Positions 1 through 583 of a DNA stretch of 583 nucleotides are shown piece after piece. A model generated the notes under the pieces. That model ran no database searches. It was given only the letters and a program-made list of their open reading frames with translations, and had not been told where the DNA came from. The translations under genes were made by a program, and so were the position numbers. Each line of letters opens with the position of its first letter. The first letter of the stretch is position 1. This DNA comes from a phage: the sequence record FN641800.1; one strand, written 5' to 3'.

Positions 1-22
1 ATTTGGGGGGTTCAGCCGCTGA
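1..22 (+). other. Probable primer-derived sequence (forward degenerate g23 primer, inosine positions read as G)
   Basis: Nt 1-22 (atttggggggttcagccgctga) match positions 4-25 of the forward g23 primer as I recall it (GATATTTGIGGIGTTCAGCCIATGA), with G at all three inosine positions (nt 6, 9, 18) and one mismatch at nt 19 (c versus primer a). The resulting gggggg run is typical of inosine-containing primers copied into amplicons. Confidence 0.55.
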
Positions 23-583
23 ACAACCCGACTGGCCAGGTATTTGCCCTGCGTGCAGTTTACGGTAAAGACCCTGTCGCTGCTGGTGCTAAAGAAGCTT
101 TCCACCCGATGTATGCTCCGAACGCTATGTTCTCCGGTCAGGGCGCCGCTGAAGCTTTCGAACCTCTGGCTGCAAGCAAGCTGCTCACCGTTGGTAAAAT
201 TTATTCTCACTCCTTCGAAGCAACCGGTTCTGCACACTACCAGGCTGTTGAAGCTGTAACCGTTGATGCTGGCGCTACTGATGCTGCTAAACTTGACGCT
301 GAAGTTACCAAACTGCTCGAAGCTGGTAAGCTGGCAGAAATCGCTGAAGGTATGGCTACCTCTATCGCCGAACTGCAGGAAGGCTTCAACGGTTCTCAGG
401 ATAACCCGTGGAACGAAATGGGCTTCCGCATCGATAAACAAGTTATCGAAGCTAAATCCCGCCAGCTGAAAGCAAGCTACTCTATCGAACTGGCACAGGA
501 CCTGCGCGCTGTTCACGGTATGGACGCTGATGCCGAATTGAGTGGTATTCTGGCTACCGAAATCATGCTGGAAATCAACCGCG
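1..583 (+). CDS. 23: Major capsid protein gp23 of a T4-like phage; internal fragment, partial at both ends (no start or stop codon in window)
   Basis: Frame 1 (codons from nt 1) is open across all 194 complete codons: IWGVQPLNNPTGQVFALRAVYGKDPVAAGAKEAFHPMYAPNAMFSGQGAAEAFEPLAASKLLTVGKIYSHSFEATGSAHYQAVEAVTVDAGATDAAKLDAEVTKLLEAGKLAEIAEGMATSIAELQEGFNGSQDNPWNEMGFRIDKQVIEAKSRQLKASYSIELAQDLRAVHGMDADAELSGILATEIMLEINR. Long stretches (PTGQVFALRAVYGKDPVAAGAKEAFHPMY; DAGATDAAKLDAE; EAGxxxEIAEGMATSIAELQEGFNGSxDNPWNEMGFRIDKQVIEAKSRQLKAxYSIELAQDLRAVHGMDADAELSGILATEIMLEINR) match the phage T4 gp23 sequence as I recall it; this is recognition from memory, not a database search. Codon usage is strongly biased, as expected for a highly expressed late structural gene. 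It is missing from the ORF track because the frame has no stop in the window and no start codon at its 5' end. Confidence 0.93.
   Translation, partial: MWGVQPLNNPTGQVFALRAVYGKDPVAAGAKEAFHPMYAPNAMFSGQGAAEAFEPLAASKLLTVGKIYSHSFEATGSAHYQAVEAVTVDAGATDAAKLDAEVTKLLEAGKLAEIAEGMATSIAELQEGFNGSQDNPWNEMGFRIDKQVIEAKSRQLKASYSIELAQDLRAVHGMDADAELSGILATEIMLEINR
559..583 (+). other. Probable primer-derived sequence (reverse complement of reverse g23 primer)
   Basis: Nt 559-583 (gaaatcatgctggaaatcaaccgcg) are the exact reverse complement of the reverse g23 primer as I recall it (CGCGGTTGATTTCCAGCATGATTTC), and the window ends on the last primer base. Confidence 0.6.

What the first reader, a model, noticed from the sequence alone, without database searches (positions are those of the whole stretch)
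1..583. Window boundaries coincide with degenerate g23 primer sites: likely a PCR amplicon with primer sequence retained
The 3' end is an exact reverse-complement match to the reverse g23 primer as I remember it, and the 5' end matches the forward inosine-containing primer minus its first 3 nt, with G at each inosine position. Natural genome windows do not start and stop on primer sites. The terminal 22-25 nt therefore probably report the primers rather than the template and should be masked in any phylogenetic or diversity analysis. The phage is then known only from this amplicon, so its genome context is unknown.
Basis: partly seen in the sequence, partly recalled or inferred. Interest (0 to 1): 0.5.

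Follow-up and report, generated by a model that had tools for sequence, protein, structure and literature searches.

The report
Phage capsid-gene PCR amplicon, primers retained
The window is an ordinary PCR product of the major capsid gene (g23) of a T4-like coliphage almost identical to phage vB_EcoM_VR20, and its first 18 and last 25 bases copy the published primers rather than the phage, so they should be masked.

Summary
Confirmed, and ordinary. Window 559-583 is the exact reverse complement of primer MZIA6. Both primer sequences were checked in papers. The closest genome is Escherichia phage vB_EcoM_VR20 (170 kb), which differs at 6 of 583 positions. Five of these (6, 9, 12, 18, 564) lie in the primer footprints, and at each the window carries the primer base (hypergeometric P = 1.6e-5). 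Between the primers the identity is 535/536. No assembled phage genome has the window's ends. In 120 natural sites, G never occurs at inosine positions 6 and 9, where it would turn an invariant Cys codon into Trp. Independent amplicon-type gp23 entries share the same DIWGVQPM...TEIMLEINR ends. The primer-retention reading is therefore supported. The claim that the phage has no known genome context is not: VR20 provides it (g22-g23-g24 head module). Position 19 reports the template, probably through 3'-exonuclease primer editing, which is inferred rather than shown. Position 212 (T>C, Phe>Ser) is a singleton of unknown status. This is a technical artefact of known kind with low interest.

The parts
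1..18 (+). Primer-derived 5' end: MZIA1bis nt 4-21. G at the three inosines (6, 9, 18) and primer T at pos 12.
   Evidence: VR20, VR26, VR7, VR25, UPEC01, VR5 and SP18 all differ from the window at 6, 9, 12 and 18. Among 120 natural sites, G occurs 0 times at pos 6, 0 times at pos 9 and 6 times at pos 18. The exact 22-mer is absent from IMG/VR. The best phage genome is 4 mismatches away over nt 1-54.
19..22 (+). Last 4 nt of the MZIA1bis footprint. Pos 19 is C (the template base, Leu codon CTG) instead of the primer's A (ATG). Positions 20-22 are the same in primer and template.
   Evidence: all seven relatives have C at 19; 119 of 120 natural sites have A, so C is specific to this lineage. 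Editing of primer 3' ends by proofreading enzymes reaches up to 6 nt (PMC8421222). That this happened here is inferred.
23..558 (+). Template-derived internal fragment of g23 (major capsid protein).
   Evidence: 535/536 identical to VR20 KP007360. Pfam PF07068 Gp23, 149.9 bits against a cutoff of 24.4.
212..212 (+). Singleton T>C (TTC Phe to TCC Ser; window residue 71, gp23 codon 179). Either a PCR or sequencing error or a real strain difference.
   Evidence: All 7 relatives have T. The 32-mer with C has 0 hits in IMG/VR and the 32-mer with T has 4. The best phage genome over 185-240 has 1 mismatch. The residue is F in the coliphage relatives and D in more distant gp23.
559..583 (-). Primer-derived 3' end: exact MZIA6 (its reverse complement on the + strand). 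Pos 564 is the primer's C where the nearest genomes have T.
   Evidence: No phage genome matches nt 530-583 in full. About 20 of the nearest genomes differ by 1, and position 564 is that difference in the seven relatives compared base by base.
1..582 (+). Open reading frame, frame 1, with no stop: gp23 codons 109-302 in VR20 numbering. Base 583 is the first base of codon 303.

Best explanation
The window is the product of a PCR with the degenerate T4-type g23 primers MZIA1bis (forward, three deoxyinosines) and MZIA6 (reverse). The template was phage vB_EcoM_VR20 or a nearly identical Gaprivervirus coliphage. The sequence was deposited without primer trimming and lacks only the first three primer bases. 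Primers become the physical ends of every PCR product, so nt 1-18 and 559-583 report the oligonucleotides. Polymerase places C opposite deoxyinosine, so each inosine reads as G (pos 6, 9, 18). This creates a false Cys>Trp codon (TGT to TGG). Primer bases overwrite the template at pos 12 (A>T) and 564 (T>C). The A:G mismatch four bases from the 3' end of MZIA1bis (pos 19) was probably removed by a 3'-5' exonuclease in the enzyme mix and refilled from the template, which restored the lineage-specific Leu codon. Shown here: the primer identity, the primer-directed pattern of differences, the absence of these ends from genomes, and the identity to VR20. Inferred: the inosine-to-G mechanism (established chemistry plus concordant entries), the primer-editing step, and the reason for the missing GAT.
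For: Primers were verified in the literature. The 3' match is exact and the 5' match is 21/22. Five of the 6 differences from VR20 fall in the 47-nt primer footprints, each towards the primer base, with P = 1.6e-5 for location alone. The internal sequence is 535/536 identical to VR20. In natural sites, G occurs 0/120 times at pos 6 and 0/120 at pos 9, and the codon is always TGY (Cys). The 5' 22-mer is absent from IMG/VR. The phage genomes closest at each end are 4 mismatches away over nt 1-54 and 1 mismatch away over nt 530-583. Amplicon-type entries P0001, P0002 and P0010 begin with DIWGVQPM and end with TEIMLEINR. P0008 and P0013 carry primer concatemers that translate as observed only if all three inosines read G. 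The predicted amplicon is 586 nt and the window is 586 minus 3. I:C is the most stable inosine pair and Taq readily extends dI-containing DNA (PMC3856533). Primer editing reaches up to 6 nt from the 3' end with proofreading enzymes and is not seen with Taq (PMC8421222).
Against: Pos 19 does not follow the primer, and a Taq-only PCR cannot produce that. Archaeal proofreading polymerases (Q5, Phusion, PfuUltra II, Deep Vent) fail with dI-containing primers (PMC3856533; PMC2794169). The editing explanation therefore needs a Taq/proofreader blend or a tolerant enzyme, which cannot be verified. The record's provenance could not be looked up: the exact protein is not in the 15-billion-protein collection, and the 2010 VR5/VR7/VR20 paper is not held. 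The first three primer bases are missing without a demonstrated reason.
Confidence: 0.95

Rival explanations
1. The window is a natural genome segment cut out in silico at the primer-binding sites, for example extracted from a genome so that it aligns with amplicon data sets. On this reading its ends are real phage sequence.
For: The ends coincide with the primer sites, as they would after an in-silico PCR. Some natural genomes (Shigella phage Shfl2) match both primers exactly at the non-inosine positions.
Against: An in-silico extract keeps the genome's bases. Here the ends differ from all nearest genomes exactly where the primers differ, and the inosine positions are all G. This gives a Trp codon where 120 of 120 natural sites encode Cys. 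No genome among 50,697 phage records or in IMG/VR has these ends.
Confidence: 0.02
2. The amplicon comes from an uncultured or different isolate of a VR20-like phage (an environmental clone), not from VR20 itself. On this reading the pos 212 T>C (Phe>Ser) is a real strain difference.
For: There is one internal difference from the VR20 genome. The residue varies among distant gp23 sequences: F in coliphages, D in P0001 and P0003. MZIA1bis/MZIA6 are mostly used on environmental samples.
Against: The C at 212 is found in no other genome or IMG/VR contig. A single T>C transition in 536 nt is within the range of a Taq or sequencing error (own knowledge). All seven closest relatives keep Phe.
Confidence: 0.3
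3. Pos 19 = C is not primer editing. It would instead result from a modified or degenerate version of the forward primer, from a base-calling error at the end of the read, or from manual curation of the sequence by the depositor.
For: Modified versions of MZIA1bis are in use ('MZIA1bis-mod' with N for I). Most proofreading enzymes fail with dI-containing primers.
Against: No published variant seen here changes the A at primer nt 22. A random miscall would hit the template base only 1 time in 3. The change restores exactly the lineage-specific base, as editing would.
Confidence: 0.35

Closest known systems
g23 (major capsid protein) of Escherichia phage vB_EcoM_VR20, KP007360 / NC_028894 (Gaprivervirus vr20, Tevenvirinae)
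   Same: The 536 nt between the primers are 535/536 identical. The reading frame is the same. The window corresponds to gp23 codons 109-302, and it shares the Leu codon at pos 19-21 that is specific to this lineage.
   Different: The window has primer bases at 6, 9, 12, 18 and 564, which produce a false Cys>Trp. It also has a singleton T>C at 212 (Phe>Ser).
MZIA1bis/MZIA6 g23 amplicons of Filee et al. 2005, as used in environmental T4-like phage surveys
   Same: The end sequences are the same. Translated entries begin with (D)IWGVQP and end with TEIMLEINR (P0001, P0002, P0010), and the inosines read as G.
   Different: The window lacks the first 3 primer bases and has CTG (Leu) instead of the primer's ATG (Met) at the primer's 3' end. 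It comes from a coliphage lineage with a complete genome rather than from an unknown environmental phage.
Phage T4 gp23 (NC_000866, T4p175)
   Same: It belongs to the same protein family (Pfam PF07068). The window's protein is 83% identical to T4 over the fragment. The T4 forward site matches the primer at all non-inosine positions.
   Different: T4 has natural TGT/GGT/CCG at the inosine positions and 2 mismatches to MZIA6.

Membership tests
MZIA1bis/MZIA6 g23 PCR amplicon with primers retained | The 3' end equals the reverse complement of MZIA6 | tested here: met
   Window 559-583 matches exactly, with 0 of 200 shuffles matching. The primer sequence comes from PMC4796948.
MZIA1bis/MZIA6 g23 PCR amplicon with primers retained | The 5' end equals MZIA1bis | tested here: met
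   Window 1-22 equals primer nt 4-25 with 1 mismatch (pos 19). The first 3 primer bases are absent.
MZIA1bis/MZIA6 g23 PCR amplicon with primers retained | Inosine positions read as G, unlike natural genomes | tested here: met
   The window has G at 6, 9 and 18. Natural sites have G at 0/120, 0/120 and 6/120 of these positions, and none has all three. Other amplicon entries imply G, G, G.
MZIA1bis/MZIA6 g23 PCR amplicon with primers retained | Where the primer and the nearest template differ at non-inosine positions, the sequence follows the primer | tested here: inconclusive
   Two of three positions follow the primer (12 and 564). Pos 19, four bases from the primer's 3' end, follows the template. 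This is compatible with 3'-exonuclease primer editing but not shown.
MZIA1bis/MZIA6 g23 PCR amplicon with primers retained | The length equals the predicted amplicon | tested here: met
   The predicted amplicon is 586 nt in VR20, T4 and Shfl2, and the window is 583 = 586 - 3.
MZIA1bis/MZIA6 g23 PCR amplicon with primers retained | The record is declared as a PCR product or partial cds | not testable with these tools
   The window's origin is hidden. The exact protein is not in the protein collection, and the original VR phage paper is not held.
Gp23 major capsid protein family (Pfam PF07068) | The profile match exceeds the curated cutoff | tested here: met
   149.9 bits against a cutoff of 24.4, E = 1.7e-43, covering residues 1-194.
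Gaprivervirus vr20 (phage vB_EcoM_VR20) | Near-identity of the template-derived sequence to the reference genome | tested here: met
   535/536 over nt 23-558. The next relatives (VR26, VR7, VR25) differ at 20-21 positions. Only this fragment is available, so genome-wide identity cannot be tested.

The most novel reading that the evidence does not exclude
The window comes from a natural variant of VR20 whose major capsid protein carries Phe179Ser in the variable part of gp23. In addition, its pos 19 would document primer editing in a PCR that used inosine-containing primers.
Probability: 0.3. Interest if true: 0.05.

Novelty: already known. Interest (0 to 1): 0.07.

Why it matters
The point matters only for data hygiene. 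The 18 + 25 terminal bases carry no information about the phage. They inflate its apparent divergence from the true closest genome (99.0% instead of 99.8% identity). They also create a false Cys>Trp substitution that other amplicon-derived gp23 entries share. Leaving such ends in g23 alignments adds artificial shared characters among amplicons and artificial differences from genomes. There is no biological novelty: the gene, the phage lineage and the artefact are all known.

Tried and rejected
1. An exact look-up of the translated window in the 15-billion-protein collection, to find the record's provenance, found nothing.
2. The original primer paper (Filee 2005, by DOI) and the VR5/VR7/VR20 paper (PubMed 20361343) are not held. 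A text search for VR20 plus g23 found nothing. The primer sequences were therefore taken from three later papers that quote them.
3. The homology search returned only 15 proteins. That was enough to show shared amplicon ends, but it is not a census of g23 entries.
4. A natural Trp at residue 2 was considered and rejected: 120 of 120 natural sites encode Cys.
5. A chimeric amplicon was considered and rejected: the internal region matches a single genome at 535/536.
6. A pure archaeal proofreading polymerase as the cause of pos 19 was considered unlikely, because such enzymes fail with dI-containing primers.
7. The short ORFs in other frames and on the minus strand are treated as chance products inside a coding region. 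The one at 3-68 starts inside the primer.

Full report
**Observation**

The 583-nt window is open in frame 1 of the + strand and has no stop codon. Its translation matches Pfam PF07068 (Gp23 major capsid protein) at 149.9 bits against a cutoff of 24.4.

- MZIA1bis is 5'-GATATTTGIGGIGTTCAGCCIATGA-3'.
- MZIA6 is 5'-CGCGGTTGATTTCCAGCATGATTTC-3' (PMC4796948).
- Two other papers give the same MZIA6 and a variant of MZIA1bis with N in place of two of the inosines.

Window 559-583 is an exact match to MZIA6 on the minus strand. Window 1-22 is MZIA1bis nt 4-25 with G at the three inosines (window 6, 9, 18). The amplicon predicted from T4, Shfl2 and VR20 is 586 nt, and the window is that length minus the first three primer bases.

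**What the template is**

Megablast against 50,697 phage records found 848 g23 matches. The best is Escherichia phage vB_EcoM_VR20 (KP007360 / NC_028894, Gaprivervirus, wastewater, Lithuania) at 99.0%. VR26, VR7 and VR25 follow at about 96.5%.

A base-by-base comparison shows 6 differences from VR20, at positions 6, 9, 12, 18, 212 and 564. Five of these lie within the 47 nt of primer footprint, and at each the window carries the primer base: G at the inosines, T at 12 and C at 564. The hypergeometric probability that at least 5 of 6 differences fall there is 1.6e-5, before counting their direction. All seven relatives examined (VR20, VR26, VR7, VR25, UPEC01, VR5, SP18) differ from the window at 6, 9, 12, 18 and 564.

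Between the primers (23-558) the window is 535/536 identical to VR20. In VR20 the fragment is codons 109-302 of g23, which sits between g22 and g24 in the usual T4 head module.

**Are such ends ever natural?**

- The window's first 22 nt occur nowhere in IMG/VR.
- 120 natural contigs match ATTTGNGGNGTNCAGCCNNTGA. Among them, pos 6 is C or T in all 120 (codon TGY, Cys), pos 9 is never G, and pos 18 is G in 6.
- In the phage genome collection, the closest record to nt 1-54 has 4 mismatches. The closest to nt 530-583 over its full length has 1.
- The G at pos 6 turns the Cys codon into Trp, and all genome-derived gp23 sequences aligned here have Cys.

**Do independent g23 entries share the ends?**

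A protein search returned few hits (15). Three amplicon-length entries (P0001, P0002, P0010) begin with DIWGVQPM and end with TEIMLEINR, whereas a genome-derived protein (Klebsiella phage CPRSB, P0003) has DICGVQPM.

Two entries named 'major capsid protein [Myoviridae environmental samples]' (P0008, P0013) are flanked by MGGSAD... and ...VIFGGFSR. These flanks are translations of concatenated forward-primer copies in other frames. VIFGGFSR* is obtained only if all three inosines read G. Inosine reading as G is therefore seen independently in other entries. It also agrees with I:C being the most stable inosine pair and with Taq readily copying dI-containing DNA (PMC3856533).

**Mechanism**

Primers are physically incorporated into PCR products, so nt 1-18 and 559-583 report the oligonucleotides and not the phage.

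Position 19 is the exception. The primer's A, four bases from its 3' end, would face a G on the template strand, yet the product carries the template's C. That C is specific to this lineage: 119 of 120 natural sites have A, while all VR-type relatives have C.

A non-proofreading PCR cannot produce this. Proofreading polymerases edit primer 3' ends to match the template as far as 6 bases in, and Taq shows no appreciable editing (PMC8421222). However, archaeal proofreading enzymes stall on hypoxanthine and fail with dI-containing primers (PMC2794169; PMC3856533). A Taq/proofreader blend is the most plausible source. This step is inferred and remains partly unexplained.

At the other end, pos 564 lies 6 bases from the 3' end of MZIA6 and forms a G:T wobble with the template. 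It kept the primer base. Positions 559-563 are the same in primer and template, so they are uninformative.

**Position 212**

The only internal difference from VR20 is T>C at 212 (TTC Phe to TCC Ser; window residue 71, gp23 codon 179).
- All seven relatives have T.
- The 32-mer with C has no hit in IMG/VR, and the 32-mer with T hits four contigs whose lengths equal those of the VR26, VR25, VR20 and VR5 genomes.
- No phage genome matches nt 185-240 exactly.
- The residue is Phe in the coliphage relatives and Asp in more distant gp23.

It may be a polymerase or sequencing error, or a real strain difference. This cannot be decided here.

The amplicon and primer-retention interpretation and the advice to mask the ends are supported. 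The primer-determined 5' stretch is 1-18; masking 1-22 is the conservative choice. The inference that the phage's genome context is unknown is not supported, because the VR20 genome supplies it.

**Comparison and novelty**

This is a standard MZIA1bis/MZIA6 g23 amplicon from a known coliphage lineage. Nothing biological is new. The finding matters only for data curation: the untrimmed ends lower the apparent identity to VR20 from 99.8% to 99.0% and introduce a false Cys>Trp substitution that other amplicon entries share. Interest is low.

**What could not be done**

The record's provenance could not be read. The exact protein is absent from the protein collection, and the original papers are not held. 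From memory only, Kaliniene et al. 2010 (cited in PMC6266253) characterised VR5, VR7 and VR20 and may be the source of such a g23 fragment. This is a lead, not a result.

Noticed in passing
window 212: A singleton T>C (Phe>Ser, gp23 codon 179) is absent from all 7 close genomes, from IMG/VR and from the phage collection. It is either a PCR or sequencing error or a real strain difference from VR20.
   Followed up: partly
window 19: Within the forward-primer footprint, the base four from the primer's 3' end is the template's C, not the primer's A. This suggests 3'-exonuclease primer editing, although inosine-containing primers are poorly tolerated by most proofreading enzymes.
   Followed up: partly
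proteins P0008 and P0013: Public entries named 'major capsid protein [Myoviridae environmental samples]' carry translated primer concatemers. They have MGGSAD before DIWGVQPM and VIFGGFSR after EINR. P0013 also has what looks like an internal forward-plus-reverse primer junction (EINRDIWGVQPMKSCWKST; not reconstructed). Part of these 'proteins' is therefore primer artefact.
   Followed up: yes
window 3-68 (+), frame 3: The listed ORF MGGSAAEQ... starts at a TTG inside the primer-derived bases. It is the same out-of-frame reading of the forward primer that appears as MGGSAD in P0008 and P0013. It is not a gene.
   Followed up: yes
L132 (T4) 5834-5858; L131 (Shfl2) 730-754: T4 itself has 2 mismatches to MZIA6, while Shigella phage Shfl2 (Tequatrovirus) matches both primers exactly at the non-inosine positions. 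An exact MZIA6 match alone is therefore not proof of primer origin. The comparison with the nearest genomes decides it.
   Followed up: yes
Homologous-protein result: Only 15 proteins were returned for a gp23 fragment that has 848 DNA matches in the phage collection. The full-length gp23 of VR20 and its relatives did not appear, so this search is not a census of g23 entries.
   Followed up: no
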